Origin: a phage
Sequence record: NC_135729.1
Reading direction: 5' to 3' (one strand)
DNA length: 64,000 nt
In this document: positions 1,558 through 29,371 of the stretch, piece after piece
Position numbering within the stretch: position 1 is the stretch's first letter
Layout: each line of letters opens with the position of its first letter
Program-made: the position numbers and the translations under genes
The notes under the pieces: model-generated
Seen by the model: only the letters and a program-made list of their open reading frames with translations
Told to the model about the DNA's origin: nothing
The model's database searches: none

Positions 1558-4500
1558 TTAACTAGGGAAGTTTGTATAAGCTTCGAGATGGTATTGCTGG
1601 TTACCAGGTAGCATAACACCTATGCTTGCAACACCTAATGTTCTACCACCAGGGTTCCACTGAAACTTAAATCCAATCCAACCCGAGCTTCTGGCTGCAT
1701 CAATGTTGTCACTGTACCCAAAAGTGGCTAGACCATCAACACCTGCTCCGAAAAGCAGTTGTATCTGGTTCCTTGGTAGGCCAATAATTTCAGGTATGTA
1801 AGCACCAAAAAATGTAGGGTTGGTGGTTGTGGTCGGATTGTTCATGACCGGACCGGTAAAGACCCTCATATTGGACGTTCCTGCAGGTCTAGGGTAAGCC
1901 CCGTCAAGAGGATTTCCTTCCCAAATAAACCACTGAGGTGCCATCTGTCTGACAGTAAACGATGTTGAAGACGTTTTGCGGCCTGCATCATCTCTAACTA
2001 CAAACTTTATGGTGACATTCCCAGTAGCTTTAAATGTTACCAGCCCCGTGGTGGCATCCACTGTTGCAATGTTGGTATTACTACTTTCCCAAGTCTTTCT
2101 AATCCCTGATACGTTGGAAGGGGTGATAGAAGGTTCCTGCATCTGCAGTTTACCGCCCACAATCCCTATGCCGTTGCCCGGATTATACAGCACACCGACC
2201 TCGTCTATAATGTTCCCTGCTTTGAGACTATACTTCCTTGAGAAGTTGTAAGTTCCGTTATAAGTGTGTGTCCCTGAGAATGTGACATCTGCCTTCCCGT
2301 AAGAGATGCAAACCAAAGCATACTTCCTGTCAGGCAACGTTTCTCCAGTCTCTGGGTGAGTTTTACCCACCTGGAACACGCTCGGGTCGGTAGAGTCGTG
2401 ACTATCGCTAATGGAGCTTGTACCGCCCATCAACTGTGACAAACAATTCCTTACCCATGTCCAGTTATTATCACTGGAGAAGTCCACAGTCAAATCAAAC
2501 ACAACCCACTCATTCGGCTTCCACACAGGTGTTGCAATGGACTTGCCTACACCGCCTCCTTGGAGTGTTGCCGACTGTTCGGTGATCAGTGCCGCATAGG
2601 CCAGAGTTCCTAAACTCAGAGTCTGGCTTGCTGTCCTCACTACCTTAGAATCAGCATCTGTGAAGTTGTTGATGATTTGGAATGTGCCATAAGTGTTTTT
2701 ACAGGTAATTCTGGCGTTCAGTGTGTCAATCTTCCTCACATCTGCCATAGCAGTGTTAGACACAGAGAAGTCAGAAGCTTTAGCTGAGTTTGCCGCAACA
2801 GCAGGATCAACGTTAAGAGTTGCGTTGAACTGACAGGCAGGGGTAACCAGCAGCTTGTTATCACCTATTTGCCTCCATGAAACACTTTGAACAGGAAGAT
2901 TCCATTTAATACCTGAGAAAACCTTAGCAACCCTTGGCCCCAAAGCTCCAGTCCTGTTGTCTTTACAGCACATAGACATGGTGATCGTTGACGGAGTGGC
3001 CTGACCAAATAATTGCTGTGCTTTTGCAGAGGACATAGTGTAGAAATTGTCCTTAACAAACTCATCAGCAGCTAAAGATCCATCAGGTCTCCACCACTGA
3101 ACCTGATACCCTGTTTTATCCCAACCACCGACCTGCTTCAAGTCCTCCCAAGAGATTTCCAGATCCCCCGTGGTCGGGTTGATTGCAGCAGTTCCTGGTG
3201 TACCGGATGACCACAATGGGATATCAAACCACGCAGGTTTAACAGATTGCACTGCATTAGGACCTATTGCAGCAGCAAGTTGTTGACCCATCAGCACGCG
3301 AGCATCTTTCACCAGACCCCATTCTATCATAGACCCAGAGTAACCTTCTTTCTTGTAGGCCGAAGATCCGTTCAAATGGATAAGTCTGCTGCAGTCGAAA
3401 CCATACGCCCCGCCACCGTTAGGATCTGCAAAGTTAGTTATGATTCTATCCCTTATATTTTTCCATGCCCTGCCTCCAATCTCATAGTCATGGTCATAAC
3501 ATCTCTGCAGCGTTGTCCAGCAAATGATTGCCATTCTTCTGCCACCAGTAAACCCGAAAGCGCCGTCATTCAACTCTTTCCACAGATAGCAGTTAGTTGC
3601 CCACATAGCTCTGTGGATATTGAACCAGTTTATAGACTTAGCAGAATTGTCCCACTGAGTTCCCGGTAATTCAGGCCACACCGCATTCACCAGCATATCC
3701 TCTGTGCCAGCATCGACCAGGAAGCCTCTTACCTTCCTACCCATCCCTTCTCTGTCTTTAGCAATCCAATTGCCAAACAGCCTCAGTTTTGGACCATAAA
3801 CAACATCTTCAGGGTGCTCAAAAGAAACATACTTCAAGTATACCGTAGGATCACCGTAGGTGCCATCACAAACACTTTTATGCATGTTCTCACCCAGGTC
3901 TAGACGAAGTCCTGTCACCACTTTAGATGTGTCGGTGAATTTGTCTGTTAAGTCAAATTCATACCACCACCACCCGCCACCTAGCATAAATTTCTTGCAT
4001 CGCACAGCGTCTGTGTCAGATATTCTCTTATCCCCTGCAAAAGGTGAATCAGCAAACTGATAGTGCAGAGCAGTCTCAAATAGGTGGGTGGAAGTTCCGT
4101 TCTCTGCAAGAACTTGCTTACCTATCAGATCGCACTTAATGATCATCACAACACGCTTGTATCCGTTTGTTACCGGAACTTGCATAGATATGGATGTTCC
4201 ATCCATGTTCGATCTTAGATCACTCATGATGATATAGGGGTCGACAGCGTTACCTAAAGTTTCAGGCCCTGGAATTATCTTGTATTTCTTGACCTGGCCC
4301 ATAAATCTGTCACTGGCGTAAGTTGCAGCCTCAAAACAAGAGCCACCACCAGGTAATTCTCCAGGTCCCCAGAAAAATGCCCCATAGCAGTTATAGAACC
4401 ACTTATTAGGGTCGTATTTGTTCTTGAAGGTCTGGACCTCGTTGGCCTGTTTTGTCAAGAAAACCTGCGTATCTGTAAAGATTGCAGGATTTACCCTTGC

Positions 4501-7185
4501 CTGACGCGGAGGGTAACCTGTAGTTTGGTTAAACCACAAATTACAAGAGTAATCCCTCATATAGTCATAATCAGAGTATTTGTTTACATCTTCGTTCCAA
4601 CACATGTTTAGGTTGGTACCGCCCATGCATACAATATATTCTGCGACATACTTATCACTTCTGGCAGGAATACCTATGAACCATCTGTTAACAGGCTCAT
4701 CCCAAGCTGTGCGCTCATCTTTAACGCAGATAGCAATCCAATCATGTGTTCCTGTTTTCTTGCACACATCTCGCTTCATACCATAGTAGAACTCTTTAGT
4801 ATTTGGCTCAGGTGCATTTATCAGGTAACTCCATGCCTGATTTGCATAAGTCCCATTGGTGCGCGGATCATGATCAAAGGCATACATGATGATCCTTTCC
4901 CCACCAAGATGTTCGCCAAGAGTAACTTTGACATTCACATCGCCGTAACCGTTGCGAACAACATCCATATTGTCAATAGAGATGCCTCTAGGAGTGTAGG
5001 CAATTTTCAGTGAGTTATCCTCACTAGTGCCACCAAGAGTGATCCCTATGTTGTTTGTTGTCCCGTCGGCATATCTTACTGTAGCTTCCCAGCGTATTCC
5101 GAAATATCCTACATCATGGCTGACAATTTTCAGTGTACGAGCGCCAGGGTGAGGTTTTCCAGGATCAGGCCAAGGATCTGGATGTTCGTGGACAGTCAAC
5201 GACGTTCCGTTTTGCTCGTTAACCTGCAACATTTTACCACCTCTGCCGTTAGGGTTGAACTCCCATACGGCCTGTGTCTGCACCAAGTTGTTGTAGGTAT
5301 TTCGTCTCTGATCATAAATCTCTTGGGTAACATCATAAGTGACTGATCCAGCATCCATTCTGTGGAGTCGGACCATATACGATGTATCCCCTTCTACTGC
5401 AGGCTGAGTCCCATTCAGTCCGAAGTATACAGTATCGTTAACATGGAACTGTTTGTTTCTACCGACAGTATGCCACTTGCCGTTGGACGGATACGCAGGA
5501 ACTATAGTGTTCCAGTTCAAAGTCCTTGTCGTATAGGTTCTTCCAGTGCCATGCTTGTCATGGTAGGTGATCTTGATAGAATACAAACCACGTCTGTTGA
5601 TGTTACGGTTATACTGGGTGACCACAACTTCGTTAGCACCACCATGGTTCCAGTTAGTGGAGAACTGATAGTTTGCATCTGTAACAACAGTGCCTGCAGC
5701 ATTTACCAACTCAATCTTGTCAATAATGAACGTAGCACCCTCCGGCTGAGGTTTCAATTTCATCTTGACAGTATCTCCGATGTAAATGTTGCTAACATTG
5801 CTCACACCATTGACATCAAAGATGTCTTCGATACCCCAGCTATCTACCGGGACATTTTTATACCAATTCTCCGGAATCTCTGTGAACCCTTGGCTGTTAA
5901 GTCTGCCGCCAAAGAGGTTATTAGATCCTGAAAAACTTCCCCTTGGGATGCCTGACCACCAAAGTTTACCATTAACAACAGTAAAGGTCCCTAAGAAACC
6001 TTCTCTATGGATGCCTTGGAAATAAACACTCTCTGTCCAGCTAACTGGCAGGCGTTGCTCAACATATTTAGCTGTAGCAAGAGCTTGATAGTGGATAAAA
6101 TCGGACCTAGGACTATTGTTTGCAGATTGTGCACCAATATCATTACACAAGTTGCGAGAGAATCCACGATACTGCTTGGTGCCATTATTGAAGAAAATGC
6201 CACTTGTGCCGTACCCACGAGCCATTATTACCTCATGGGTGTAGGTGATATTCAGTTCCCGCCATGTATCATCTCCCCAAATGTTTTGACCATAAAATAC
6301 GTTAACAAGCTGCTGGTCATCGGGTCTATGCATCCTCTGTGTGGCAATTATTGCCCCGTTAGGACCGCACATAAACCCTTTCCACTCCTCATCTGCAGGA
6401 ATGCCCCTCAAATCGTTACGAGTAATCTGCACAGGAGGCCAAACAAGGTCGTTTCTACTGTTATTTCTCAGAAAGTCGTATCCAGCAATCCAGAAACCTC
6501 TAGGACCACCGAAAATAACAGAGTTGTCATGCACCTCGCAGTTGATGCTTGGGTTTTTCCAAGGACCTGTTTCAGGATTTTCCGATGTCTCACCAATCTT
6601 TACAGGGGTTGCATGCTGATTTTTGTCAACATGAAGAGAGCCGTAAGTATTATTGCCAGAGCCGTACAGGTGAAGCATACCATCAGCCTCTGGTGCAGCA
6701 ATTACCCACACTGTATTGTTTACGCCACCCATTACTTCAACAAGTCTCTCAGGATGGGTGTCCAAATGCAACCCTGTTACGATCTGTTCCGGCAAAGGTG
6801 TCCACTCTCTGACACAAACATCGTTTCCACCTGCTGCCTCCGATCCGATAAGACCAGCTGTGCAACCAATATAGAAAAATTTATTATCGAATGTGCGGAT
6901 TACAAATGCACGGTCAGCTCTCCAAACATGGTCTACGTTCCAAGCTGCCTCATTAGGATAGTTTATTGTATCAAGATCTCCAGTCCGACACTCTCCGAAC
7001 CTATTATAGCCAGTAATATTAAGCTGACCATCATCAAAAAGTATAGCTAAGCTATTTACATAGGATACTGTGTTGCTTGTACCATCACTGTTGTCTATTG
7101 GGTATGACAGAACAGCAAGTTCCTTAATTCCACCCCTCTTATCGAGGAAATGACGACCAAGTTTTAGCAAAGGGATTGGAAGCAT
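1558..7185 (-). CDS. very large tail fiber / tailspike protein (1875 aa)
   Basis: Longest ORF in the window, last gene of the late operon; Gly/Asn/Thr/Ser-rich beta-type composition; Big_2-like Ig segment (ATGNVTIKFVVRDDAGRKTSSTSFTV). Confidence 0.75.
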   Translation of the reverse strand: MLPIPLLKLGRHFLDKRGGIKELAVLSYPIDNSDGTSNTVSYVNSLAILFDDGQLNITGYNRFGECRTGDLDTINYPNEAAWNVDHVWRADRAFVIRTFDNKFFYIGCTAGLIGSEAAGGNDVCVREWTPLPEQIVTGLHLDTHPERLVEVMGGVNNTVWVIAAPEADGMLHLYGSGNNTYGSLHVDKNQHATPVKIGETSENPETGPWKNPSINCEVHDNSVIFGGPRGFWIAGYDFLRNNSRNDLVWPPVQITRNDLRGIPADEEWKGFMCGPNGAIIATQRMHRPDDQQLVNVFYGQNIWGDDTWRELNITYTHEVIMARGYGTSGIFFNNGTKQYRGFSRNLCNDIGAQSANNSPRSDFIHYQALATAKYVEQRLPVSWTESVYFQGIHREGFLGTFTVVNGKLWWSGIPRGSFSGSNNLFGGRLNSQGFTEIPENWYKNVPVDSWGIEDIFDVNGVSNVSNIYIGDTVKMKLKPQPEGATFIIDKIELVNAAGTVVTDANYQFSTNWNHGGANEVVVTQYNRNINRRGLYSIKITYHDKHGTGRTYTTRTLNWNTIVPAYPSNGKWHTVGRNKQFHVNDTVYFGLNGTQPAVEGDTSYMVRLHRMDAGSVTYDVTQEIYDQRRNTYNNLVQTQAVWEFNPNGRGGKMLQVNEQNGTSLTVHEHPDPWPDPGKPHPGARTLKIVSHDVGYFGIRWEATVRYADGTTNNIGITLGGTSEDNSLKIAYTPRGISIDNMDVVRNGYGDVNVKVTLGEHLGGERIIMYAFDHDPRTNGTYANQAWSYLINAPEPNTKEFYYGMKRDVCKKTGTHDWIAICVKDERTAWDEPVNRWFIGIPARSDKYVAEYIVCMGGTNLNMCWNEDVNKYSDYDYMRDYSCNLWFNQTTGYPPRQARVNPAIFTDTQVFLTKQANEVQTFKNKYDPNKWFYNCYGAFFWGPGELPGGGSCFEAATYASDRFMGQVKKYKIIPGPETLGNAVDPYIIMSDLRSNMDGTSISMQVPVTNGYKRVVMIIKCDLIGKQVLAENGTSTHLFETALHYQFADSPFAGDKRISDTDAVRCKKFMLGGGWWWYEFDLTDKFTDTSKVVTGLRLDLGENMHKSVCDGTYGDPTVYLKYVSFEHPEDVVYGPKLRLFGNWIAKDREGMGRKVRGFLVDAGTEDMLVNAVWPELPGTQWDNSAKSINWFNIHRAMWATNCYLWKELNDGAFGFTGGRRMAIICWTTLQRCYDHDYEIGGRAWKNIRDRIITNFADPNGGGAYGFDCSRLIHLNGSSAYKKEGYSGSMIEWGLVKDARVLMGQQLAAAIGPNAVQSVKPAWFDIPLWSSGTPGTAAINPTTGDLEISWEDLKQVGGWDKTGYQVQWWRPDGSLAADEFVKDNFYTMSSAKAQQLFGQATPSTITMSMCCKDNRTGALGPRVAKVFSGIKWNLPVQSVSWRQIGDNKLLVTPACQFNATLNVDPAVAANSAKASDFSVSNTAMADVRKIDTLNARITCKNTYGTFQIINNFTDADSKVVRTASQTLSLGTLAYAALITEQSATLQGGGVGKSIATPVWKPNEWVVFDLTVDFSSDNNWTWVRNCLSQLMGGTSSISDSHDSTDPSVFQVGKTHPETGETLPDRKYALVCISYGKADVTFSGTHTYNGTYNFSRKYSLKAGNIIDEVGVLYNPGNGIGIVGGKLQMQEPSITPSNVSGIRKTWESSNTNIATVDATTGLVTFKATGNVTIKFVVRDDAGRKTSSTSFTVRQMAPQWFIWEGNPLDGAYPRPAGTSNMRVFTGPVMNNPTTTTNPTFFGAYIPEIIGLPRNQIQLLFGAGVDGLATFGYSDNIDAARSSGWIGFKFQWNPGGRTLGVASIGVMLPGNQQYHLEAYTNFPS

Positions 7186-7235: not shown

Positions 7236-8981
7236 TTAACGTTGTGCAATTACTACGTCTACGATATCACCAACACCACAATATGTTAATTGCAGCAAGG
7301 TAACACTATTAGCCTTGTTATTAATAACAGGCGTTGCCGACAGGATAGCATACTTATCGTGCAAAGTCACGTTGTGACCTACAGCATCCTGAATGACATA
7401 GATAACCGCAGTGAATGGATAAGGTTTATCTTCCGCTGATGTACCAGGCCATTGTCCTATTGTAAAATCCCCTTTCGCGTGGACAACATACATACTGGCC
7501 TGCCCGTTAGGTGTCCATGTCCCACTGGACGCGTCAACCTCCTCTAAATCAAAATCTACCTTTCCTGCGTGGAAAGTAGGGGCAGTAATGGTTTTACCCG
7601 CCTCAATTTCTTGAGAGGTGGTTATCTTGCCACTGGAGTTAATGCCATTACAAACAAAGTTGACATTAGAGAAGTCTGGCAGCCACCCAGTCACTGTGCC
7701 GGATATTTCAAGGTTGTGAAGGTAGGTGGTGCCCGTCCCTGCTGCGTTTAAACTAACATCTCCATTTACCTGCAAGTTTCTGGTAACGTTGCAGTTTTCA
7801 GAGTTTGCAGTTGTTGCAGTTAAAGTAGTGGTTGTCAGCTCGGTAATTACACCTTTGTTGGCTGTAAGCCCTTCCCCTTCAAAAGTTGCACGCTCATTGA
7901 CTCTTAGGGTATTCAGAGCTATGTTTTGGATAGAGGCTGTACCTCGAATAACTACAGATCCGCCAACTTCTAAATCACCATTTATTAATGCGTCCCCCGT
8001 GCTTTCAATATAGCTAGGGTAAATCATGGTGCCATCGACAGAGTAGGTTATCCCTGTAACAGTGCCTGTCACCTCAAGGTTCTTAACCCTGGTGGTTCCA
8101 TCTACCTGCAATGTCGGTTCTGTTGCTGCCTTCATGGCATTACCACGAATGTACACGTAGTCAAAAAAGTTATTACCTAGACCATCAAAATGCACATCGT
8201 TATTATTAGCCACTGGTTTCCCAGAAGTTATAGTGTCAGCTATAACCCTGTGGGTGGACACTTCATGAGGTTGCAGCTCTGTGCTTCTCCAGTCTGCATG
8301 CTTAGGATCACTCCACGCAAAAGTAAGTGTAGAAGTATTTGCCGTGAGGATTAGGTTCCTGAAGCGTGCAGTAGAATCTGCTCCATTAACAGGCCCATGT
8401 AAGGTGAGTGTGCCACCAACTATAGTGTTAGCAAGTTCTGTAAGACCTTTTACCACCAAAGACCCTACAGTAACTTTCATTCCCTCCATGGCTTCAAATA
8501 TGCTATCCACATAGTCAACAACAAACTCTGTGTTTGCTATAGACTCGGATTTGTCGTCCATTGGAGGCGTAGGTACTCGCGGGTCACCTTCGAACCTCGG
8601 ACTGTTAAGTTTTGCGTAGTATTTTGCCATTACTGCAGAATCGGTATATAATCTCCAGTTTGGAGATTGTGAAGGATCTGCTGGCATTCTAACCGGGTTA
8701 GATTTTGATGCTGCGGGAGCGTACCACCACTGAGGGCCTGTGTCCCCTTTAAACTCGTACAGCTGGTTAAAAACTGTTGTGGATGCACCATACGCCCAAG
8801 GGATTGGTGGCGTTTTAAAATAAAGGGTGTCAAGCATGGCTTTTCGTACCGTAGGGATGGTGGTCCCATCCTCTACGACAACTTCATCCACAGCGTTACC
8901 GTTGACAATCAGGTGCAAACGTTCAGAATCAACAATTACTTGATCTACCGCCTGCTCAAAGCTTGTCATGTCTTGCGCCAT
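7236..8981 (-). CDS. tail fiber protein (581 aa)
   Basis: Thr/Gly/Asn/Val-rich repetitive beta-strand composition typical of fibers; inside the fiber gene block. Confidence 0.6.
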   Translation of the reverse strand: MAQDMTSFEQAVDQVIVDSERLHLIVNGNAVDEVVVEDGTTIPTVRKAMLDTLYFKTPPIPWAYGASTTVFNQLYEFKGDTGPQWWYAPAASKSNPVRMPADPSQSPNWRLYTDSAVMAKYYAKLNSPRFEGDPRVPTPPMDDKSESIANTEFVVDYVDSIFEAMEGMKVTVGSLVVKGLTELANTIVGGTLTLHGPVNGADSTARFRNLILTANTSTLTFAWSDPKHADWRSTELQPHEVSTHRVIADTITSGKPVANNNDVHFDGLGNNFFDYVYIRGNAMKAATEPTLQVDGTTRVKNLEVTGTVTGITYSVDGTMIYPSYIESTGDALINGDLEVGGSVVIRGTASIQNIALNTLRVNERATFEGEGLTANKGVITELTTTTLTATTANSENCNVTRNLQVNGDVSLNAAGTGTTYLHNLEISGTVTGWLPDFSNVNFVCNGINSSGKITTSQEIEAGKTITAPTFHAGKVDFDLEEVDASSGTWTPNGQASMYVVHAKGDFTIGQWPGTSAEDKPYPFTAVIYVIQDAVGHNVTLHDKYAILSATPVINNKANSVTLLQLTYCGVGDIVDVVIAQR

Positions 8982-20585: not shown

Positions 20586-21022
20586 TAATACCTCCAGACA
20601 TCAACAACGATAGAATCTTTCATGTCGAACATAAAGACCCCTTTATCACCTTTCGCCCAAATCTGGTTGTTCCAGAACACACCAGCGGTGAGCCCGTTCA
20701 GACCTTCGAAAATAACAATATCGCCACGCTGAACCTGTTTAGGAGTATCCAGTCGAGTCATAAAGAGATCAAAAATAGTAGGCAGGTGTGTAGTTTTGAA
20801 ACGAAGCATGCACCATCTTTTGCTTTCCAACTCTGTTTTATACGTTCCTTCGAAGTTGGAAAGAAAATCTGTTCCGTATTGGGCATCAACACACTTAGCC
20901 GCAAAGGTGCAACAATCGTGGAATCCCCATTCAAAAGGTATGGTGGCCTCTTCGTCAAACACTTTCCACAATCTTTCTTGCCAATCCACTAAACGAGGGT
21001 GTGTGCTCATTAAACCTCCCAA
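20585..21022 (-). CDS. tail-associated protein, possibly NlpC/P60-like peptidase fold (145 aa)
   Basis: GFHDC and GDIVIF motifs loosely resemble the Cys-containing core of NlpC/P60 or CHAP hydrolases; weak. Confidence 0.3.
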   Translation of the reverse strand: MGGLMSTHPRLVDWQERLWKVFDEEATIPFEWGFHDCCTFAAKCVDAQYGTDFLSNFEGTYKTELESKRWCMLRFKTTHLPTIFDLFMTRLDTPKQVQRGDIVIFEGLNGLTAGVFWNNQIWAKGDKGVFMFDMKDSIVVDVWRY

Positions 21023-21576: not shown

Positions 21577-22153
21577 AGAAGTTGATAACTATATTATCAC
21601 CTTTTTGCATAGCATCGACTTTTTGCTTAATTTTATAAATATCTCTGATATGAAACCTACCCTTCGGGGATTGAGTTATTATCTTCATAGTGTCCCCTGC
21701 GGCAATAGGTTTTCTAAGTCTTGGAGATATGCTTATAACAGCAGACCCAACACCATCGCTACGCACTGGAGCTGTTACCACTTTCAATTCATCATTGACA
21801 GATATTTTATCCCCAGCTCTGGCTATGTCTCTGTTTGGCTCCCACCCAACCGTCTTCAAAAAATCGTCGTTACCAGTAGGCCCAAGGGCGATTGGCTCAT
21901 TAGCTGTAACTGAGTGACCGTAAGTTTTAATAAGAAAGATGTTTCCATCTTTATACACCTGATCAACAAAGCTCTTAAGCTCTAGCAACTGTGACTCGCT
22001 GATATTGGAAACCGTCAAAGTGCCTTTCCAGTTAGGTGTGGCATAGGTTACTTTTTGCGTTTTACCTGTAAACGGACTTTTAAACGTAACAATATCTGCC
22101 AGCAGCTCCAATCTAATATCTGGAAGGTATCTAGGCCTTTCCCATAAAAACAT
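21563..22153 (-). CDS. tail tip / baseplate protein (196 aa)
   Basis: First gene after the terminator that follows the 1271-aa tailspike; position-based. Confidence 0.4.
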   Translation of the reverse strand: MFLWERPRYLPDIRLELLADIVTFKSPFTGKTQKVTYATPNWKGTLTVSNISESQLLELKSFVDQVYKDGNIFLIKTYGHSVTANEPIALGPTGNDDFLKTVGWEPNRDIARAGDKISVNDELKVVTAPVRSDGVGSAVISISPRLRKPIAAGDTMKIITQSPKGRFHIRDIYKIKQKVDAMQKGDNIVINFFEDF

Positions 22154-22252: not shown

Positions 22253-25200
22253 TTACTTCAGTTTCTCTTGCAACCCAGTAACAACCTCTGTCAATTTTTT
22301 AACCTGCTCCTCAAGGGCGGTTATTTTATCGTCCTGTTCCCTGCAAACCTGGACAAGCAAGCCTGTTACGGCTGCGTAATCCACGCTGTAGAATCTTTCC
22401 TCTGTTATCAAAGGAGTTCCATCTTGATCAGGGTTTGGGATTTCCTTTCTTTGCACGAAAGAGCTAACTGCTTCCGGCAGCGCTTCAAGCACTTCTTGTG
22501 CTATAACACCTGCATAAGGCATACCGTTCTCTTTAAGAGTGTAAGTATAACCCTTCATCTTCCGGATAGCTTCTAACGCATCAGGAATAACAGCTATGTT
22601 ATCTTTCAGATCTCTGTCAGAACTCTGATTGACAGATGTGCAATTCACAGCGCCGTTTACAGAAAGATATCTTGATTTATCTGGCAAGGTACCGCAATGC
22701 CATACCCAATTTGATTGAGACTCGTCAAGAACCTTAAACTCTAACACGTTTGGACGATCTCCTGTGCTGCCGTTACCCCAATAATACATATGGGCGGCAT
22801 TAGCAGGCATGTTGCCACCGTTATTAGTAACATGACTTCCAGAAATATATACCTTTAACTCTGGGGTTGGTATTTCCCCTTCCGGGGTTGTTCCTCCATA
22901 CCTGAAGCTAACACCATTACCACCTGTTTGGGTCCACGGGCCCCAAGTGAAGACCTGTTTCACCATATTCCCATAACGTGTAAATCTATCGCCATGGTAG
23001 GTAATATATTCTTGAACACACCCATTACCGTTATTGGCGTTATTTTGCAACACAATAAGTGTTCCGGCCTCATTTACGGGATAATGACGATCATATGTTG
23101 CATCATTATTTGCAGGCTGATGGTAAATACCTTCCCACAATCCGTGATAGGTGTTAAGGTCTGAAGAACCAAGACCTTGACCCCTGTGTTGCATAGCCTT
23201 ATTCCAGGGATGGTGATTACCACCTTCTATAGACCTGGTGTATAAGTTACTTTGTCTGCCAGCAATCTGGAAAGCGTAGTTTCCCGAGAATCCTACAGAT
23301 AACCCGCCTACAACCATGGTATCTTGTGGGCCGTTAACATTACCAGCTATTATTTTTGACGGGTTGTTAGGCCCGAACTGGTTGTTCCAGTCTGCACCTG
23401 TGTGGCATACAAAACCACCTGGTGCTGAGAAAGTACCATCTTTGTTGAAGTTGTAGAATCTATGAGCTGTGCCTACAACATCACGAACAATAACTTGACC
23501 AGCCTCTGGAGTAGATCTGAACTCTGCTTGACCTTTAAGGCCAGCACCATTACCGCATTTAGAGGTAAACGTGCCGTTAGTTAGATCCTCTGTTCCATCT
23601 GATGCACACTGGAATCCTGCGTTAGAGAATAGCGCCTTTCTAGGACCACTGTAGCACAAATAGTCAAAACCGTCAGCCCATAGCTCTACTTTAGGCATGT
23701 TCATTTTGCTCATTATCGCATAGCGTTCAGCAGTGCCTATATAGTGCCACTGTGTGCCGCCGCCAGTGTAGAACCCTGAAGTGCCTTTGAAGTCAACAAT
23801 AGGTCTGGTATTGGTATTGTTATCTCCAAGAACAGCTAGATTCAAGTCTGCTGATTGAAGAGGTGCAACGAACTTAACCCCATCCTGATTGTTTGTTACA
23901 GAGCCGACTTGATAATCTTGCTCTCTGGTAAACACTTCGACAACATTTCTACTTGCGTATATGCTGACAGGGAAAGCACGAGCCTCTGCATAGAAAGCAA
24001 CATACTCTTGTTTACCCCTTGTTGGAGCAACCATCCCAAGAAGTGCTTTTTCATTCTTCTGGTAGAAATTTACTACCCCGTAGAAAGAGTCTCCCCTGTC
24101 CGTCCAGCCGCCAGTTCTATAGTGACACTGCAGGGTGGCACAGTTCATAGGGTCATTTCCAGATGAAAACCTGGTGACTATAGTAATATCAGTGCCAGTT
24201 GCTGGAGCATAGTACGGATCTGTTCTAACGATGATTGGGTAGTATTTCCCATCTTCCATCCCTGCGGTTCTTGGCAGTGTTAAGAAGTCTTTTACACCTG
24301 CCGCTATAGGAACTTTGAACAGATTCTGAGCATCTGCTAAAGTTGTAGCTCCAGTGCCACCTGCGGCTTGAGGTAAAGGTTCCCACTTGGCCTTCCGGTT
24401 GTTATAAACACCCCACTCCAAAGTGCCGTTACCGGATTCGTCCATCCCACCATCCCAGATAACCATCTTGGCGGCTTTCTTGGACCCCCAGAAGCCTCTT
24501 TCTGCTCCTGAACTACGGATCCACTCTCCAAGTCCCCAGTTTGTCAGCTGACCAGTAAGATCCCCAACCTGCATATATTTAGGGCAGTCTAATACTCCGT
24601 CTTCGCGGAAACCTAAATATCTGTGAGTTTCAGATCCTTTTGCACCTTTGTGCAGGTGGATTGTCAACCAAGCTTTATTGTCGTTTCTTACCTCAGAGTA
24701 GATCCTATAACCATGCTCAAGGACACCGTCAGCGTTGTATTTGTCCCCGTTAACAATACCTGATGCTGACTTAACATCAGCAGAACTTTGAGACAGGTAA
24801 AGGTGCCCGAAGGTAGGGGAATTTCTAGACCCGAGACCGATGTGCGATCTAAAGGTATCATCGTTACGAGGTCTGACCATCGGCTGCCATGCAGTCCACT
24901 GGTTTGTGTTGGCTTGATAGGTTCTCAAATACCAAACATCTACGTTAGAGAATGGATAGTATTCCTGACGACAACCTGTACCGCCGTTAGCATTGTTCTG
25001 CCAAACAATCAAGTGACCAGCACCAGAACCTGCAGGGTAACCATTTTCCTCAGTTGCATAAGCAGTCATCGGCTGGTAGTATACACCATCCTGATTACCA
25101 GTCAAGTTATTGATATTGAAATTTGGCTCAAGGGCTGCACGTTGCTTATAGAAAGCCCCGATATTGATACGGACTCCAGCGGCATCTCTGGCCCCTGTAC

Positions 25201-26068
25201 CGCCTTGCTCTATAGCAAGAGGTTGCCACGAGGCTGTTTGTTGGTTCCACATACCCCAACGGCCTGTTGCATCAAGCTGCAAGTACCCTGCCGTGTTTAA
25301 ATCATCTCCAGCACGGATAACTGTTCTTGTTGGGTTGTTTGCCTCCAGGCGTTTAAATTCATCACGAAGTGCTATTCTTTTTGTTGTCGCTACACCGTTG
25401 GTTACTGAGATGGTATACATAGCTCCGGAGGTAGCTCCACGGAAAATACCATCAACAGTTGTAGTATCACGACGAGATACCACACCGTTCAGAAATTTTT
25501 CACCAGCTGCTACAGAGGGATAGTTGGTGGTTCTTCCCTCTTCAATAACTGCAGGGCCAACAAAGTTATCAAGGTGGATAACATCACTTACAGTGTGCAC
25601 TGTACCAAAATCTACACGCTGTGCAAGGGCTTTAGCATCGTTAGCTGTCTGAACAGTAACATCCATTACATCCTGGACAGACTGCCCTTCGGCTGTCATG
25701 ATCATAGATGCGCCAATGGTAGATTCCAACTCCTCCCTTAAGGACGGGTCAGTATATACCATCCATGCAGCGTCAGTAATCCCACCATCAGCGTACGGTG
25801 AAGATAGTGCAGGAACAGTGTGTGGAAATTCGCCTTTCCAACGCAGGTAGAGGTCTTCCTCTTCGAAGTAGGCAAAATCCATTGGGCCGTTTAACTTACC
25901 ACCTTCCTTAAAGGAGATTACATGAGAAACAGTCCCATCCACATGGACAACATCGCCAATTTTTACACGACGGGTCAGGTCTGGTTGTTGAACAACCAGG
26001 TAATCATCCTCTGTCACTGCGGTAGTGGCAGGAAGAGATTCAATTCTGACAACTTTAATATCAGCCAT
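22253..26068 (-). CDS. tailspike protein (1271 aa)
   Basis: N-terminal anchor segment (DDYLVVQQPDLTRRVKIGDVV) shared with the 222-aa protein at 28703..29371; long Gly/Asn/Thr/Trp-rich body typical of a beta-helical spike. Confidence 0.7.
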   Translation of the reverse strand: MADIKVVRIESLPATTAVTEDDYLVVQQPDLTRRVKIGDVVHVDGTVSHVISFKEGGKLNGPMDFAYFEEEDLYLRWKGEFPHTVPALSSPYADGGITDAAWMVYTDPSLREELESTIGASMIMTAEGQSVQDVMDVTVQTANDAKALAQRVDFGTVHTVSDVIHLDNFVGPAVIEEGRTTNYPSVAAGEKFLNGVVSRRDTTTVDGIFRGATSGAMYTISVTNGVATTKRIALRDEFKRLEANNPTRTVIRAGDDLNTAGYLQLDATGRWGMWNQQTASWQPLAIEQGGTGARDAAGVRINIGAFYKQRAALEPNFNINNLTGNQDGVYYQPMTAYATEENGYPAGSGAGHLIVWQNNANGGTGCRQEYYPFSNVDVWYLRTYQANTNQWTAWQPMVRPRNDDTFRSHIGLGSRNSPTFGHLYLSQSSADVKSASGIVNGDKYNADGVLEHGYRIYSEVRNDNKAWLTIHLHKGAKGSETHRYLGFREDGVLDCPKYMQVGDLTGQLTNWGLGEWIRSSGAERGFWGSKKAAKMVIWDGGMDESGNGTLEWGVYNNRKAKWEPLPQAAGGTGATTLADAQNLFKVPIAAGVKDFLTLPRTAGMEDGKYYPIIVRTDPYYAPATGTDITIVTRFSSGNDPMNCATLQCHYRTGGWTDRGDSFYGVVNFYQKNEKALLGMVAPTRGKQEYVAFYAEARAFPVSIYASRNVVEVFTREQDYQVGSVTNNQDGVKFVAPLQSADLNLAVLGDNNTNTRPIVDFKGTSGFYTGGGTQWHYIGTAERYAIMSKMNMPKVELWADGFDYLCYSGPRKALFSNAGFQCASDGTEDLTNGTFTSKCGNGAGLKGQAEFRSTPEAGQVIVRDVVGTAHRFYNFNKDGTFSAPGGFVCHTGADWNNQFGPNNPSKIIAGNVNGPQDTMVVGGLSVGFSGNYAFQIAGRQSNLYTRSIEGGNHHPWNKAMQHRGQGLGSSDLNTYHGLWEGIYHQPANNDATYDRHYPVNEAGTLIVLQNNANNGNGCVQEYITYHGDRFTRYGNMVKQVFTWGPWTQTGGNGVSFRYGGTTPEGEIPTPELKVYISGSHVTNNGGNMPANAAHMYYWGNGSTGDRPNVLEFKVLDESQSNWVWHCGTLPDKSRYLSVNGAVNCTSVNQSSDRDLKDNIAVIPDALEAIRKMKGYTYTLKENGMPYAGVIAQEVLEALPEAVSSFVQRKEIPNPDQDGTPLITEERFYSVDYAAVTGLLVQVCREQDDKITALEEQVKKLTEVVTGLQEKLK

Positions 26069-26103: not shown

Positions 26104-28701
26104 TTAAAGGTACAATCCACGGTATTGAGCATAAAGGCCCAGACCGCGAAGGATTTCGCCAGAGTGATAGCCCACCGGATCAGAAACTGCCCAGCAGCCG
26201 TTTAAAACATTATCCCCATTGATGAAGTGGTGCTTTTGCAGTAGCTTCACGCAGGCTTCTACAACAATATCTATTTGAGGTATTGTCTCTGAATACCCGC
26301 ACAGACCTAGCCAGCAGCAACCTGCAAGCCATTCACCTACCACCCACATCCTGTCTCCTCTGTCCTGATAAGAATATCCCCCAGAGGTGTTAAAGTCTGT
26401 AGGTAGATTTCCTGAATGAGATGACTGGAATCTGTTGAGGAACCATGCCCATTTCTGGCAGAACAGGAATAATCTTTCATCAACAGGTTCTTTATGTTTC
26501 TTGAGCTCATAGATTGTGCGGCACGCAGCAACAAAAGATCTTGACTGGAGCTTAGAGTTATCTACCATCTCCCACCAACCAGTCAGCCCTTCATTACCTC
26601 TCTGCCATACATAACGCGAGGCAACTGGACCCTCTGTCTTAAATGTATTATTATACCAGACTTGAGCGTCATACAGAAAGCCTATTGTATTTGACAATCT
26701 ATGGCGATCTATGTTTTCTGCACCCATGCAGTAGACTGCTGGGTATTGCATGCCTGGGTAGGGCCAATTTGGCCTTTCCTCTAAGAGATAGTTTTCCTTA
26801 TCTATCACCTTTCCGGCAGGGAACACACCTGGTGTGTGCCTGTATGCACCTTGCTTGTAGTTTCTGACATAGCAATCACCAACCTTAGCGGTTGATTCTG
26901 TCTTGCTTGCCATCCATACGCTAAACCAGATTAGATAAGCATCCCTATCTGCAATATAGAATTGCGGCAGTGTGTTGACGCAATATAGATCAAACAAGCC
27001 ATTACCTATCTGCCTGTCGCTTAGGCTGAAATCTACAGAGGTGAGTCCCTTAGGATTAGCAAAGAAAGGTTTAATCTCTTCTTCAGTGTGATGAGGTTGT
27101 GTCGGATCTAGTTTGAAATCTCCTAGAGTAAGAGTTTCTGTTACCCATTGTCCATTAGTGGCATATAGATCAGCATACCATAACCACCTGTCTTTGTCAA
27201 GAAATTTGACCCTTACCATCTCATCATCTGATCGATAAGTTACTGAGTTTAAAGAAATCTCTCTTCCAAAATTGAAAGTTACTTTGCCTCTTGCTATATT
27301 ACAACGGGTGAAGTTGTCAGAGTGGTTGTAAATGTCAGTATCGTACTGCATGCTAACACTGGCACCACCGCTCACGGCAATGTTTTCCTCTTTAGGTAAG
27401 AGGTACGGATTACCGTCTTTACCAACTACCTCTACGAAATCAGTAACCTTGGCAACTATTTCTGTTACCTCTGCCCCTCCAAAAGGAACCCCTATCCTGT
27501 ACTGTTTTTTGTTATTGTTGCCATCATTAAGGATGAAATGTGGCTGGAACAGAACCCCCTCTCCTCCGAAATTCATAACAATTTCAGCATCTCTGCCTAT
27601 TTTGTATGTAGTCCCTTTTTGGATTATTTCGCAAGGCTGGCGTGCGTTCATTCTAAAATTGATATACCCGTCACTGTCCCTGCTCATGACAGGAACTGTT
27701 CCTGCAACAAGACAAGTACCATCTGTAAACGGTGCCTTAATCAACGTGGTCTTTCTAAACAGTTTGTCGTATGCGTTTATATCACTGAAATTAAGCAACT
27801 TGTTGTAAGACTGTTCAAACGCGGTGTAATACTTTTCCTCACCTGTCAAGGTGTAGAGTTGATAACAAGCGTCACACCACATTTCTTCCCCGTCCAACTC
27901 TGGGGCCTGATTATCTGCAACCACGTTTATAGGATTTACAATTACAGGGGATCCAGCAGGTATCACCGATCCACCCTGCTCTTGAGGTAATCTTACACAA
28001 TAGGTCACCTTGTGGCTTCCTGTAACACCCTTATCTTGTAATTGGATTGTGCCGAACTCTATAGACGTATGCCCACTGTCGGCTATGCTTCCGTTAGCCC
28101 AATAGCGGTTACCATCCCATGCTATGTACCACTCAACCCACCAACTTAATCCGGATGTTGTCCAATCTGGGTTAGCATCTGTGCCACCGTAAACATCAGA
28201 GTCTACAGTGTTTCTTCCTAACACACCGTTATACGCTTGGAATGCCTTGTCCAGGTATTCCCCCCATGTCGGAGATCCAGCTGGGATTTTTCCTCTACCG
28301 TTGGTAAAAGACACCACCACATCTTTAAACCCACCGTGTGATGGAACCCCATCTGTGGATAGAGGGTAGTGGGACAATCTTTGCATTTTACTTTCTACGG
28401 CATATGCACCCAGAAGATGACTATTGTAAGATTCCCAAGCATCTTTTGCCCTATCCAGATAGAAATCGCTTTTCGATGCCCTGTATGCTTCAATGTATCC
28501 CAGAATCAACACAGCTTGGGACTCATGCATTGCCCAATCGTTATTTATCTTATTACCTGCCCACCCTGCAGCTATAAGACCATCAGGGTTTACTAGCTTA
28601 TTTTGTGTAGGTGTGTTGGTAATACCTGTGTTGTTATCGAGGCACTTCCTGTGCCCCTCAATCATCTGAAATACGTTATCAATGTTGTGTTGAATACGCA
28701 T
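26104..28701 (-). CDS. tailspike / putative polysaccharide depolymerase (865 aa)
   Basis: Large Trp/Tyr-rich protein with a glycoside-hydrolase-like composition, embedded among spike genes; enzymatic class not determinable by eye. Confidence 0.5.
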   Translation of the reverse strand: MRIQHNIDNVFQMIEGHRKCLDNNTGITNTPTQNKLVNPDGLIAAGWAGNKINNDWAMHESQAVLILGYIEAYRASKSDFYLDRAKDAWESYNSHLLGAYAVESKMQRLSHYPLSTDGVPSHGGFKDVVVSFTNGRGKIPAGSPTWGEYLDKAFQAYNGVLGRNTVDSDVYGGTDANPDWTTSGLSWWVEWYIAWDGNRYWANGSIADSGHTSIEFGTIQLQDKGVTGSHKVTYCVRLPQEQGGSVIPAGSPVIVNPINVVADNQAPELDGEEMWCDACYQLYTLTGEEKYYTAFEQSYNKLLNFSDINAYDKLFRKTTLIKAPFTDGTCLVAGTVPVMSRDSDGYINFRMNARQPCEIIQKGTTYKIGRDAEIVMNFGGEGVLFQPHFILNDGNNNKKQYRIGVPFGGAEVTEIVAKVTDFVEVVGKDGNPYLLPKEENIAVSGGASVSMQYDTDIYNHSDNFTRCNIARGKVTFNFGREISLNSVTYRSDDEMVRVKFLDKDRWLWYADLYATNGQWVTETLTLGDFKLDPTQPHHTEEEIKPFFANPKGLTSVDFSLSDRQIGNGLFDLYCVNTLPQFYIADRDAYLIWFSVWMASKTESTAKVGDCYVRNYKQGAYRHTPGVFPAGKVIDKENYLLEERPNWPYPGMQYPAVYCMGAENIDRHRLSNTIGFLYDAQVWYNNTFKTEGPVASRYVWQRGNEGLTGWWEMVDNSKLQSRSFVAACRTIYELKKHKEPVDERLFLFCQKWAWFLNRFQSSHSGNLPTDFNTSGGYSYQDRGDRMWVVGEWLAGCCWLGLCGYSETIPQIDIVVEACVKLLQKHHFINGDNVLNGCWAVSDPVGYHSGEILRGLGLYAQYRGLYL

Positions 28702-28702
28702 C

Positions 28703-29371
28703 TTAGATAGCTCCTGCGATAATCAGTGCCCCGTACCAAGTTAACCCGTTGTCGTAGGTTTCCAACTTGAAAATGTCTGTTGCACCAGCTGTAAATGTTA
28801 GGATAGGATCTCTTCCGTAGGACCATTTAACATTACCAGGCCAATAGACTTTGTTGCCGCCAGAGGTCTGAGTAATGCATACAGTTATAGTTCTCGCCAC
28901 CCCTTCAAGACCTTCTGTTTGATTTTCAAAAGAGATTGTGGTATTTGAAGTTAGTCGAACCTTAAAGGTATCCGCAACTTCAAGATCCATATCAAGCTGA
29001 CCACCGATAGATCCGTAATCAACTATTCTGCCAGAAGAAGTTGCAGCAAGCTCACCAAAAACAGACCAGGCATTTGCAGACACACCTCCAGCACCCTCTA
29101 CAGTGGAGTCTGGGAGGATTATTTTAGGATAATCCCCGTTCCACGTGTAGTAGCGCTTAGTTTCTGGGTCATAAGCAAAGTCCTTCTTGCTCTTAAGATA
29201 ACCACCCTCTGTGAAATAGACTATCTTGGTAATGCTAAGATCGTTGACAACATCGTCAATCTTAGCCTTTCTTGTCCCATCAGTCTGGTTGACAACCAAG
29301 AAGTCATCACTCAGGACTGTTTCTGCATCTTCAAGATCTGGAATTGGTATTGTAGGATAAGCTACAGCCAT
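28703..29371 (-). CDS. fiber adaptor protein with tailspike N-terminal anchor domain (222 aa)
   Basis: N-terminal DDFLVVNQTDGTRKAKIDDVV...FTEGGYLKSKKDFAY parallels the N-terminus of the 1271-aa spike. Confidence 0.45.
   Translation of the reverse strand: MAVAYPTIPIPDLEDAETVLSDDFLVVNQTDGTRKAKIDDVVNDLSITKIVYFTEGGYLKSKKDFAYDPETKRYYTWNGDYPKIILPDSTVEGAGGVSANAWSVFGELAATSSGRIVDYGSIGGQLDMDLEVADTFKVRLTSNTTISFENQTEGLEGVARTITVCITQTSGGNKVYWPGNVKWSYGRDPILTFTAGATDIFKLETYDNGLTWYGALIIAGAI

What the first reader, a model, noticed from the sequence alone, without database searches (positions are those of the whole stretch)
1558..29371. Unusually large multi-fiber / multi-tailspike arsenal sharing an N-terminal anchor domain
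At least eight fiber or spike genes (1875, 1279, 1271, 865, 690, 581, 348 and 346 aa) occupy about 27 kb. The 1271-aa spike and the 222-aa protein share an N-terminal anchor-like segment, suggesting a branched adaptor-and-spike assembly of the kind used by phages with several depolymerases. Several spikes look like enzymatic domains, implying a broad or capsule-dependent host range.
Basis: partly seen in the sequence, partly recalled or inferred. Interest (0 to 1): 0.5.

Follow-up and report, generated by a model that had tools for sequence, protein, structure and literature searches.

The report
rV5-type phage multi-fibre host-recognition locus
This is the well-known, very large tail-fibre and baseplate gene cluster of an rV5-like E. 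coli phage, almost identical to published phages; the shared "anchor" is real but occurs in only two proteins, so the finding is essentially ordinary with two modest new details.

Summary
The window is a Vequintavirus (rV5-like myovirus), about 97-98% identical in DNA to published phages such as AlexBoehm, MaxBurger and rV5. This multi-fibre apparatus is already described for rV5/phi92-type phages as a "nanosized Swiss army knife".

The shared N-terminus of the 1271-aa and 222-aa proteins is real (38% identity over 99 residues). It has two parts: an N-peptide of about 45 aa and a Pfam Tail_spike_N domain. No other ORF in the 64 kb carries either part.

In GAP31 the same anchor carries a colanidase. 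In phi92 the N-peptide alone sits on the endosialidase. Each time a small N-peptide protein and a p865 homologue lie beside it. That supports "conserved anchor, exchangeable head".

No CBA120-type gp10-like branching domain was found. Enzyme-like folds were found in only two proteins: p865, an (alpha/alpha)6 glycosidase-like barrel, and p690, an N4 gp64-like TIM barrel. The other large proteins look like fibres.

Side finding: p196-p188-p145-p1279 is a complete siphovirus-type tail-tip cassette. Published transposon data show it is needed on a clinical isolate but not on K-12.

The parts
28703..29371 (-). p222: small protein made of an N-peptide (aa 1-45), a Tail_spike_N domain (aa 46-105) and a C-terminal all-beta domain (aa 109-222). 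It is the orthologue of rV5 gp43, Bas54_0025, GAP31 g221 and, for the N-peptide and C-domain only, phi92 gp140.
   Evidence: called essential on K-12 in the Bas54 transposon data; the AF2 model was unusable (pLDDT 47)
29057..29371 (-). Shared N-terminal anchor module, copy in p222 (aa 1-105)
   Evidence: blastp 38% identity with p1271, E 1e-16; PF18668; HMMs find only two copies in the window
26104..28701 (-). p865: virion protein with a split (alpha/alpha)6 barrel of glycoside-hydrolase type plus beta-rich insertions. It is the orthologue of phi92 gp141 (35%) and GAP31 g222 (34%), and always lies between the two anchor-bearing genes.
22253..26068 (-). p1271: long fibre made of the anchor module (aa 1-105), a shaft related to the siphovirus Seurat lateral fibre (aa 169-679), and a C-terminal Peptidase_S74 intramolecular chaperone (aa 1150-1201). 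One of the allelically variable genes.
   Evidence: a fibre of this class with a C-terminal S74 domain was reported fitted into the Bas54 cryo-EM map (PMC12143355); that it is the Bas54 orthologue of p1271 is my inference
25754..26068 (-). Shared N-terminal anchor module, copy in p1271 (aa 1-105)
21563..22153 (-). p196: homologue of siphovirus distal tail protein (Dit); first gene of the Seurat-like tail-tip cassette
   Evidence: phrog_1302 'distal tail protein', E 2e-50; 32% identity to Seurat gp16; outside Vequintavirus, every match in the sampled listing is a siphovirus-sized genome
21010..21576 (-). p188: second cassette gene, 40% identical to Seurat gp17
20585..21022 (-). p145: third cassette gene, DUF6950, 45% identical to Seurat gp18
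16746..20585 (-). p1279: complete J/pb3-type hub-plus-fibre protein with hub region, Ig/FN3 domains, coiled coil and Phage_Tail_Tip. It is 54% identical to Seurat gp19.
   Evidence: the N-terminal profile hits T5 pb3 at E 3.5e-27 and lambda J at 1e-14; the rV5 orthologue gp37 was found in virions (PMC3606486)
15150..16640 (-). p496: baseplate wedge subunit (Baseplate_J), the orthologue of phi92 gp145 on which fibres I and III dock
   Evidence: PMC13450770
14452..15138 (-). p228: second wedge subunit (phi92 gp146-like), present in two conformers per wedge in phi92
   Evidence: PMC13450770
12380..14452 (-). p690: Calx-beta domain, NCTSP_N domain and a TIM barrel, the homologue of N4 gp64 and phi92 gp142. 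It is the proposed receptor-binding protein for the NGR surface glycan.
   Evidence: PF23845 E 4e-80; 9lc0_M Gp64 E 2e-24; 42% identity to gp142; literature
11327..12367 (-). p346: short tail fibre 1 (Mu gpS-like, phi92 gp147-like)
   Evidence: PMC8594841
10728..11312 (-). p194: tail fibre assembly chaperone (Caudo_TAP)
9269..10315 (-). p348 (347 aa from the ATG at 10312): short tail fibre 2, a 43% paralogue of p346
7236..8981 (-). p581: baseplate-proximal fibre. Its N-terminal helical bundle and beta-helix are homologous to the phiTE long tail fibre, which docks on the wedge and sheath initiator. Its N-terminus resembles that of the phi92 gp150 colanidase and its C-terminal head that of phi92 gp151.
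   Evidence: 9cuy_g E 9e-77; RBPseg class TC8
1558..7185 (-). p1875: giant variable fibre-like protein. The N-terminal ~200 aa are conserved across related genera and one Big_2/intimin-like Ig domain is detected (aa 1682-1733).
   Evidence: non-essential on K-12 and depleted on a clinical isolate
29381..30097 (-). p238: sheath-initiator-like baseplate protein (phi92 gp139-like). In phiTE its C-terminal helix joins the N-terminal bundle of the p581-type fibre.

Best explanation
The region is the baseplate-periphery and receptor-binding locus of an rV5-like (Vequintavirus) myovirus. It encodes a multivalent adsorption apparatus built from separate modules, each with its own way of attaching to the virion. 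Module 1 is a core set needed on all hosts tested: two Mu-like short tail fibres with their chaperone (terminal receptor in the LPS core, from the literature); p581, a fibre that by homology to the solved phiTE fibre plugs its N-terminal helical bundle into the wedge and sheath initiator; and p690, an N4-gp64-like TIM-barrel protein taken in the literature to bind the NGR glycan. Module 2 is the triad p222-p865-p1271. p222 and p1271 carry the same two-part N-terminal module (N-peptide plus Tail_spike_N), and p865 has a glycosidase-like (alpha/alpha)6 barrel. I infer that the shared module docks both proteins on equivalent sites of one baseplate-attached assembly, and that the part behind the anchor is exchangeable between phages: a long fibre here, a colanidase in GAP31, an endosialidase in phi92. 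Module 3 is a four-gene siphovirus-type tail-tip cassette (Dit-like, two small proteins, and a J/pb3-like hub-plus-fibre) that acts as an alternative, host-specific adsorption device. Module 4 is p1875, a giant variable fibre with a conserved N-terminal anchor. Shown here or in cited work: homologies, synteny, folds, presence in virions, and gene-by-gene fitness on two hosts. Inferred: who binds whom, and all enzymatic activities.
Against: No physical interaction was tested or modelled here. The p222 model failed, so the fold of the anchor and of its C-domain is unknown. Shared transposon phenotypes could partly reflect polar effects within one operon rather than one assembly. The two resampling sheets in the stored supplement are identical, so only one clinical isolate is really documented. 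The paper's text calls the p865 and p1271 orthologues dispensable on K-12, while its tables call them 'intermediate'. p865 shares only 9-13% identity with glycosidases, and its catalytic residues were not checked. A cryo-EM study of Bas54 located only three fibres, so the positions of p865, p222, p1279 and p1875 on the virion remain unknown.
Confidence: 0.75

Rival explanations
1. One reading: a CBA120/G7C-type tree of tailspike depolymerases, in which a scaffold spike with T4-gp10-like domains carries the other spikes by their N-termini.
For: The Tail_spike_N domain of p222 and p1271 is the same family as in CBA120 TSP1, TSP3 and TSP4. CBA120 TSP1 and TSP3 also have similar N-termini, visible in their first 60 residues. 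From my own knowledge of Plattner et al. 2019, these dock on paralogous sites, which would be a close analogy. Relatives put true depolymerases on this anchor.
Against: The matched domain is an internal domain of the CBA120 spikes (TSP1 aa 98-159, TSP4 aa 423-484), not their N-terminal ends. phmmer with the first 330-340 residues of TSP2 and TSP4 (where, from my own knowledge, the gp10-like branching domains lie) finds nothing in any window ORF (best E 0.29). No family named for T4 gp9/gp10 appears among the Pfam hits of the 19 locus proteins scanned. Only 2 of 9 proteins share the anchor. p581-type and short fibres dock directly on the wedge in phiTE and phi92. p1271 is a fibre, and no beta-helix depolymerase was identified in this window.
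Confidence: 0.12
2. The shared N-terminus is only a common trimerisation or neck domain inherited by duplication. It has no shared docking role, and p222, p865 and p1271 are independent components.
For: Tail_spike_N is a widespread domain lying well inside many tailspikes of unrelated phages. phi92 gp140 lacks it, and phi92 gp151 has it without the N-peptide.
Against: The first 45 residues, upstream of the Pfam domain, are also conserved. They recur at the extreme N-terminus of exactly two proteins per genome in three genera, always flanking a p865 homologue, while the distal parts are swapped. The three genes share one fitness phenotype.
Confidence: 0.1
3. Some of the large proteins are not tail receptor-binding proteins at all. 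p1875 could be an Ig-like head or neck decoration, and the J-like cassette an inactive relic of recombination with a siphovirus.
For: The Ig region of p1875 matches a PHROG filed under 'head and packaging'. Its orthologue and the cassette orthologues are non-essential (p188 'intermediate') on K-12. Neither was located in the Bas54 cryo-EM.
Against: All four cassette genes become essential, and the p1875 orthologue becomes important (log2FC -2.2), on a clinical isolate. rV5 gp37 (the p1279 orthologue) was detected in virions. The cassette is intact and 99-100% conserved across the genus. The N-terminal 200 aa of p1875 recur in 'tail proteins' of related genera.
Confidence: 0.03

Closest known systems
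Tail-fibre and baseplate locus of rV5 and the BASEL Vequintavirus phages (AlexBoehm/Bas56, MaxBurger/Bas54); rV5 gp27-gp49
   Same: Same genes in the same order. Proteins are 98-100% identical, except the two variable fibres: p1875 at 92-98% and p1271 at 94-98%.
   Different: Nothing of substance; this is one more isolate-level variant.
phi92 'nanosized Swiss army knife' multivalent adsorption apparatus (Schwarzer et al. 2012, as cited in the papers read; cryo-EM in PMC13450770)
   Same: Homologous hub, spike, sheath initiator, wedge, short fibre with chaperone, gp141 (p865), gp142 (p690) and gp140 (the p222 N-peptide and C-domain). Several fibre sets sit on one baseplate.
   Different: phi92 puts an endosialidase (gp143) on the N-peptide and a colanidase (gp150) on the p581-type N-terminus. 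In the 49 kb of phi92 examined it has no match to the J-like cassette or to p1875, and only one short fibre.
CBA120 TSP1-4 and G7C gp63.1/gp66 branched tailspike complexes
   Same: Tail_spike_N domain; the idea that several receptor-binding proteins are mounted through conserved N-terminal modules.
   Different: No gp10-like branching domains detected. Most components are fibres, and several dock directly on the wedge.
Siphovirus tail-tip complex (lambda M-L-K-I-J, T5 pb9/pb3, Seurat gp16-19)
   Same: p196-p188-p145-p1279 is collinear with Seurat gp16-19 and 32-54% identical to them. p1279 keeps the hub region of pb3 and J.
   Different: Here the cassette sits in a contractile-tail phage that has its own hub and spike. 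It is not next to the tape-measure gene and is dispensable on K-12.
Phage N4 non-contractile sheath subunit gp64 (PDB 9lc0, 9yf4)
   Same: Homologous TIM-barrel domain (E 2e-24). Both phage groups depend on the NGR glycan.
   Different: p690 has extra N-terminal domains (a weak Calx-beta match and NCTSP_N) and belongs to a myovirus baseplate, not a podovirus sheath.

Membership tests
Vequintavirus (rV5-like) receptor-binding locus | Near-identical sequence and gene order with rV5, Bas54 and Bas56 from the tape measure gene to the last large fibre gene | tested here: met
   97-98% DNA identity over 23.5 kb; every protein at 92-100%; same order
Vequintavirus (rV5-like) receptor-binding locus | Two paralogous Mu-like short tail fibres plus a chaperone, and several large lateral fibre genes, three of them allelically variable | tested here: met
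   p346 and p348 are 43% paralogues, with Caudo_TAP p194. Against the three close relatives compared, only p1875 and p1271 fall below 98%; BASEL reports three variable genes
CBA120/G7C-type branched tailspike complex | Tail_spike_N (PF18668) domain in the spikes | tested here: met
   p1271 aa 46-103 and p222 aa 51-105; an HMM built from them hits TSP1, TSP3 and TSP4 at about 1e-15
CBA120/G7C-type branched tailspike complex | T4-gp10-like branching domains in a scaffold spike that receive the other spikes | tested here: not met
   No such family among the Pfam hits. phmmer of the N-terminal 330-340 aa of TSP2 and TSP4 against all window ORFs gives a best E of 0.29. This is a sequence-level test only; a fold-level test was not possible.
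CBA120/G7C-type branched tailspike complex | Each branch ends in a beta-helix depolymerase | tested here: inconclusive
   p1271 ends in a fibre with an S74 chaperone and p865 is an (alpha/alpha)6 barrel. The beta-helices of p581 (RBPseg) were not modelled here.
Siphovirus tail-tip module (Dit plus J/pb3-type hub-fibre) | Dit homologue followed by small tip proteins and a J-like protein, collinear with a siphovirus | tested here: met
   phrog_1302; 32, 40, 45 and 54% identity to Seurat gp16-19 in the same order
Siphovirus tail-tip module (Dit plus J/pb3-type hub-fibre) | Hub-forming N-terminal region of J/pb3 present | tested here: met
   Profile of p1279 aa 1-480 hits T5 pb3 aa 266-763 at E 3.5e-27 and lambda J aa 177-481 at 1e-14
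Siphovirus tail-tip module (Dit plus J/pb3-type hub-fibre) | Encoded directly after the tape measure gene and assembled at the end of the tail tube | tested here: not met
   The cassette lies between p1271 and the wedge gene, about 10 kb from the tape measure gene. Its position on the virion cannot be tested with these tools.
(alpha/alpha)6 glycoside hydrolases (GH105, GH88, GH8, GH76) | (alpha/alpha)6 barrel fold | tested here: met
(alpha/alpha)6 glycoside hydrolases (GH105, GH88, GH8, GH76) | Sequence membership in a GH family and conserved catalytic acids | tested here: inconclusive
N4 gp64-like NGR-binding proteins | NCTSP N-terminal domain and TIM barrel | tested here: met
   PF23845 at E 4e-80 and PF23844 at 1e-12; 9lc0_M at E 2e-24
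N4 gp64-like NGR-binding proteins | Binding or deacetylation of the NGR glycan | not testable with these tools
   Only genetic dependence of related phages on wecB/nfrB and a predicted deacetylase fold, both from the literature

The most novel reading that the evidence does not exclude
rV5-type myoviruses carry a complete, intact siphovirus tail-tip module (Dit-like p196, p188, p145, and the J/pb3-like hub-plus-fibre p1279). It was probably captured from a Seurat-like (Queuovirinae) siphovirus and inserted between the anchored fibre gene and the wedge gene. It works as a self-contained alternative adsorption organelle on a contractile-tail baseplate: dispensable on K-12 but required on a uropathogenic isolate. 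Alongside it, the conserved triad 'small N-peptide protein / p865-like protein / N-peptide RBP with exchangeable head' would name the unassigned arm of phi92 fibre I (gp140/gp141) and its rV5 equivalent. I found neither point stated in the papers I read.
Probability: 0.45. Interest if true: 0.5.

Novelty: already known. Interest (0 to 1): 0.3.

Why it matters
The finding as written restates a published hallmark of rV5/phi92-like phages, so it adds little. Which gene makes which fibre is still openly unresolved for this therapeutically relevant, broad-host-range group (BASEL 2021; RBPseg 2025; phi92 cryo-EM 2026). Two sequence-level results here give concrete, testable assignments. The first is a conserved anchor triad with exchangeable heads across three genera. 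The second is a siphovirus-type tip cassette that behaves as one unit in published transposon data. Both could guide host-range engineering by swapping heads behind aa ~105-135 of the anchored protein, and could help interpret unassigned cryo-EM density.

Tried and rejected
- **p222 structure.** The AF2 model from 4 close sequences had pLDDT 46.6, with the N-terminal 114 residues below 50, and was not used. The BASEL label 'sialidase domain protein' therefore could not be tested. A roughly 110-aa all-beta C-domain is in any case too small for a sialidase propeller (my inference).
- **Small cassette proteins.** Single-sequence PDB searches of p196, p188 and p145 found nothing. Pfam at E up to 10 and NCBIfam added nothing. 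Their equivalence to lambda M, L and K is therefore not shown; only the homology to Seurat gp16-18 is.
- **p865 sequence searches.** Its PDB sequence search found nothing.
- **Homologue depth.** The word-indexed searches returned few hits for p865 (6) and p222 (4), which limited model quality.
- **Per-site transposon counts.** I read those for the p865 and p1271 orthologues hoping to see an insertion-free N-terminal anchor. After competition on K-12 both genes are almost empty along their whole length, so no sub-gene pattern can be read.
- **Second clinical isolate.** The two resampling sheets, labelled CFE303 and CFE311, hold identical numbers in the stored copy, so I treat them as one experiment.
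- **Rejected ideas.** A recent foreign origin for the cassette: its GC content matches the rest of the locus. A fibre array generated by tandem duplication: there are only two paralogue relations in the locus.
Full report
**What the window is.** DNA of window 1500-25000 matches 132 phage records. In 100 of them at least 80% of the query is covered. The best matches reach 97.4-97.7% identity over the full 23.5 kb: the annotated Escherichia phages AlexBoehm (Bas56), vb_EcoM_bov10K2, MaxBurger (Bas54) and rV5, plus unannotated records named 'Campylobacter phage'. The neighbouring 24 kb behaves the same way. This is a Vequintavirus (rV5-like) myovirus. Protein by protein, the locus is 98-100% identical to AlexBoehm, MaxBurger and an rV5 variant. 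The exceptions are the two known variable genes, p1875 (92-98%) and p1271 (94-98%).

**Check of the observation.** The nine named genes fill about 81% of 1558-29371. An all-against-all BLASTP of the 21 proteins of the locus finds only two paralogue relations. One is the two short tail fibres (p346 and p348, 43% over their full length). The other is p1271 aa 7-105 versus p222 aa 8-105 (38%, E 1e-16). Pfam places the second half of this segment in PF18668 Tail_spike_N, the N-terminal domain of CBA120 TSP1 and G7C gp66. Solved tailspikes, including CBA120 TSP3 and TSP4 and G7C gp63.1, match the same stretch. HMMs of the first 45 residues and of the Tail_spike_N part find only these two proteins among all 427 six-frame ORFs of the window. 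The title 'arsenal sharing an N-terminal anchor' is thus overstated: two proteins share it.

**What each large protein is.**
- **p581.** It matches the solved long tail fibre of phage phiTE (9cuy_g, E 9e-77, aa 8-325). In that structure the N-terminal helical bundle docks on a wedge protein and takes up a helix from the sheath initiator (PMC11972413).
- **p690.** It carries the Pfam 'non-contractile tail sheath protein' N-terminal domain and TIM barrel (E 4e-80). It matches N4 Gp64 (E 2e-24), the minor sheath subunit of N4 (PMC13434306). The literature treats this protein type (phi92 gp142) as the binder of the NGR glycan, with a predicted deacetylase domain.
- **p346 and p348.** These are Mu-like short tail fibres with a Caudo_TAP chaperone, p194.
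- **p1271.** It ends in a Peptidase_S74 intramolecular chaperone. Its shaft (aa 169-679) resembles the lateral fibre gp21 of siphovirus Seurat.
- **p1279.** It is J-like.
- **p1875.** It has one detectable Ig-like (Big_2, intimin-type) domain. Its N-terminal ~200 aa recur at 30-40% identity in 'tail proteins' of phAPEC8-like, GAP31/SSE121-like and phi92-like phages. That is the usual pattern of a conserved anchor with a variable distal part.

Enzyme-like folds are therefore supported for p865 and p690 only. Activity is untested, and the remaining large proteins look like fibres. For p581 that rests on homology and on RBPseg; it was not modelled here. For p1875 most of the sequence remains uncharacterised.

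**The anchor, examined in relatives.** The shared segment has two parts with separate histories.
- In phi92, gp140 has the N-peptide (35% to p1271 aa 1-37) and the C-terminal domain of p222 (42%), but lacks Tail_spike_N. gp151 has Tail_spike_N without the N-peptide.
- In GAP31, a different genus of the subfamily, the gene order is g221 (p222 orthologue, 44%), g222 (p865 orthologue, 34%), g223, and then the wedge gene.
- The first 133 residues of g223 are the same anchor (34% to p1271, 40% to p222). Its residues 113-708 are 37% identical to the phi92 colanidase gp150 (E 2e-109).
- An N-peptide HMM also hits the N-terminus of the phi92 endosialidase gp143 (E 7.6e-7 among 924 ORFs). A p865 homologue, gp141 (35%), lies between gp140 and gp143.

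Three genera thus keep a triad: a small N-peptide protein, a p865-like protein, and an N-peptide receptor-binding protein. The head behind the anchor differs each time: a long fibre, a colanidase, or an endosialidase. It also fits the phi92 cryo-EM, where the endosialidase is placed at the tip of an L-shaped fibre I whose arm is unassigned, and fibre II branches from its base (PMC13450770).

**Independent functional evidence from the literature.** The HIDEN-SEQ preprint (10.1101/2025.11.20.689424) mutagenised Bas54, whose gene numbers I mapped to the window. The table below combines its reference-library calls with mean insertion counts after competition on K-12 and on a clinical isolate.

| Window protein | Bas54 gene | Reference call on K-12 | Mean count, K-12 to isolate | log2FC |
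|---|---|---|---|---|
| p222 | 0025 | essential | 0 to 17.8 | +4.2 |
| p865 | 0026 | intermediate | 3.1 to 52.1 | +3.7 |
| p1271 | 0027 | intermediate | 0.2 to 16.6 | +3.9 |
| p196 | 0028 | non-essential | 84.9 to 0 | -6.4 |
| p188 | 0029 | intermediate | 53.1 to 0.6 | -5.1 |
| p145 | 0030 | non-essential | 38.2 to 0 | -5.3 |
| p1279 | 0031 | non-essential | 86.0 to 0 | -6.4 |
| p1875 | 0041 | non-essential | 30.9 to 5.8 | -2.2 |

The orthologues of p581, p690, both short fibres and their small neighbours are essential, and those I read in the resampling table are near zero on both hosts. The triad and the cassette therefore behave as two reciprocal functional units. The authors say only that different fibre sets are conditionally essential. 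The grouping into units is my reading of their tables. Polar effects cannot be excluded. The two sheets for the two clinical isolates are identical in the stored copy.

**The siphovirus-type cassette.** PHROGs calls p196 a distal tail protein (E 2e-50). Among the matches listed, high identity is confined to Vequintavirus-sized genomes, and the weaker matches listed are all siphovirus-sized genomes of about 40-80 kb. None is from a Cronobacter or Pectobacterium phage. In phage Seurat, genes 16-19 follow the tape measure gene and have matching sizes. p196, p188, p145 and p1279 are 32, 40, 45 and 54% identical to them, in the same order. A profile of p1279 aa 1-480 hits the hub regions of T5 pb3 (E 3.5e-27) and lambda J (E 1e-14). 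p1279 is therefore a complete hub-plus-fibre protein, in a phage that already has a myovirus hub (p334) and spike (p225). phi92 and GAP31 lack the cassette in the regions examined. In GAP31 the wedge gene follows the anchored RBP directly, so the cassette looks like an insertion specific to the genus. rV5 gp37 (the p1279 orthologue) was found in virions and gave an HHpred match to PDB 3CDD, a Shewanella prophage MuSO2 tail protein (PMC3606486). Its place on the particle is unknown: cryo-EM of Bas54 located only three fibres near the baseplate, the classes that match the short fibre, p581 and (by my inference) p1271 (PMC12143355).

The Tail_spike_N HMM hits CBA120 TSP1 (aa 98-159), TSP3 (aa 97-158) and TSP4 (aa 423-484). 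These are internal positions of those spikes, not their N-terminal ends. The first 330-340 residues of TSP2 and TSP4 are where, from my own knowledge of Plattner et al. 2019, the gp10-like branching domains lie. They find nothing in any window ORF (best E 0.29). The N-peptide is absent from the CBA120 spikes. No family named for T4 gp9/gp10 appears among the Pfam hits. The locus therefore works in a broadly similar spirit, with conserved N-terminal modules and exchangeable heads. It fails the one defining feature of the CBA120/G7C family that could be tested, at sequence level.

[quoted passage not shown] It cites the 'nanosized Swiss army knife' comparison and the broad host range. [quoted passage not shown] RBPseg counts nine annotated fibre proteins in Bas49 and Bas54. 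The finding as written is therefore already known, and the sequence is a near-copy of published genomes. I did not find two points in the papers I read. One is the explicit triad with swapped heads across rV5-type, GAP31 and phi92 phages. The other is the recognition of genes 16746-22153 as a whole siphovirus tip cassette. The library does not hold Schwarzer et al. 2012, so prior description there cannot be excluded.

**Verdict.** Novelty: already known. Interest is low to moderate (0.3), carried by the two side results rather than by the finding itself.

Noticed in passing
window 16746-22153 (- strand): p196-p188-p145-p1279 is collinear with the tail-tip genes 16-19 of siphovirus Seurat and 32-54% identical to them. 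p1279 keeps a pb3/J-type hub region. The cassette is absent from the phi92 and GAP31 loci examined, and published transposon data show it is required on a clinical isolate but not on K-12.
   Followed up: yes
window 22253-26068, aa 169-679 of p1271: The shaft of p1271 is 32-34% identical to the lateral tail fibre gp21 of siphovirus Seurat. This fibre therefore looks like a chimera of an rV5-type anchor, a siphovirus-type shaft and an S74 chaperone end.
   Followed up: partly
window 7236-8981 (p581) versus L004 (phi92): p581 is mosaic relative to phi92. Its N-terminus (aa 6-112) is 44% identical to the N-terminus of colanidase gp150. Its C-terminal head (aa 486-581) is 48% identical to the C-terminus of fibre gp151. 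The same enzymatic head (colanidase) is mounted on the p581-type N-terminus in phi92 and on the p1271-type anchor in GAP31.
   Followed up: partly
window 29381-30097 (p238, sheath-initiator-like): Its Bas54 orthologue (bas54_0024) has no insertions on K-12 but a mean of 92 on the clinical isolate (log2FC +6.5). It moves with the p222-p865-p1271 block. This is unexpected for a sheath initiator. It may reflect insertions at the 3' end or polarity on the next genes; I did not look at site positions.
   Followed up: no
phage collection hits to window 1500-54000: Eighteen records named 'Campylobacter phage' with host Campylobacter jejuni (MG0656xx, unannotated) are 97-99% identical to this E. coli rV5-like genome. 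The naming looks doubtful, perhaps from coliphages co-isolated in those preparations.
   Followed up: no
supplementary file 9 of 10.1101/2025.11.20.689424: The sheets labelled 'K-12 vs CFE303' and 'K-12 vs CFE311' hold identical numbers in the stored copy, and the console line names sample 311. One of the two comparisons is probably missing.
   Followed up: partly
window 9269-10315, 20585-21022, 21010-21576: The mechanical ORF starts (GTG or TTG) are a few codons upstream of the ATG starts annotated in relatives: 347 versus 348 aa, 141 versus 145 aa, and 183 versus 188 aa.
   Followed up: no
window about 52000-54000: GC skew changes sign from negative to positive near 54 kb. The simplest reading (not checked) is a switch of coding strand at the end of the structural gene block.
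   Followed up: no
window 8991-9257 (p88) and 10402-10716 (p104): Two small genes sit among the fibre genes. p88 is membrane-protein-like (phrog_1322, phi92 gp144-like) and p104 has no known function. Their Bas54 orthologues are called essential, and both are conserved in GAP31. Their role in fibre assembly is unknown.
   Followed up: no
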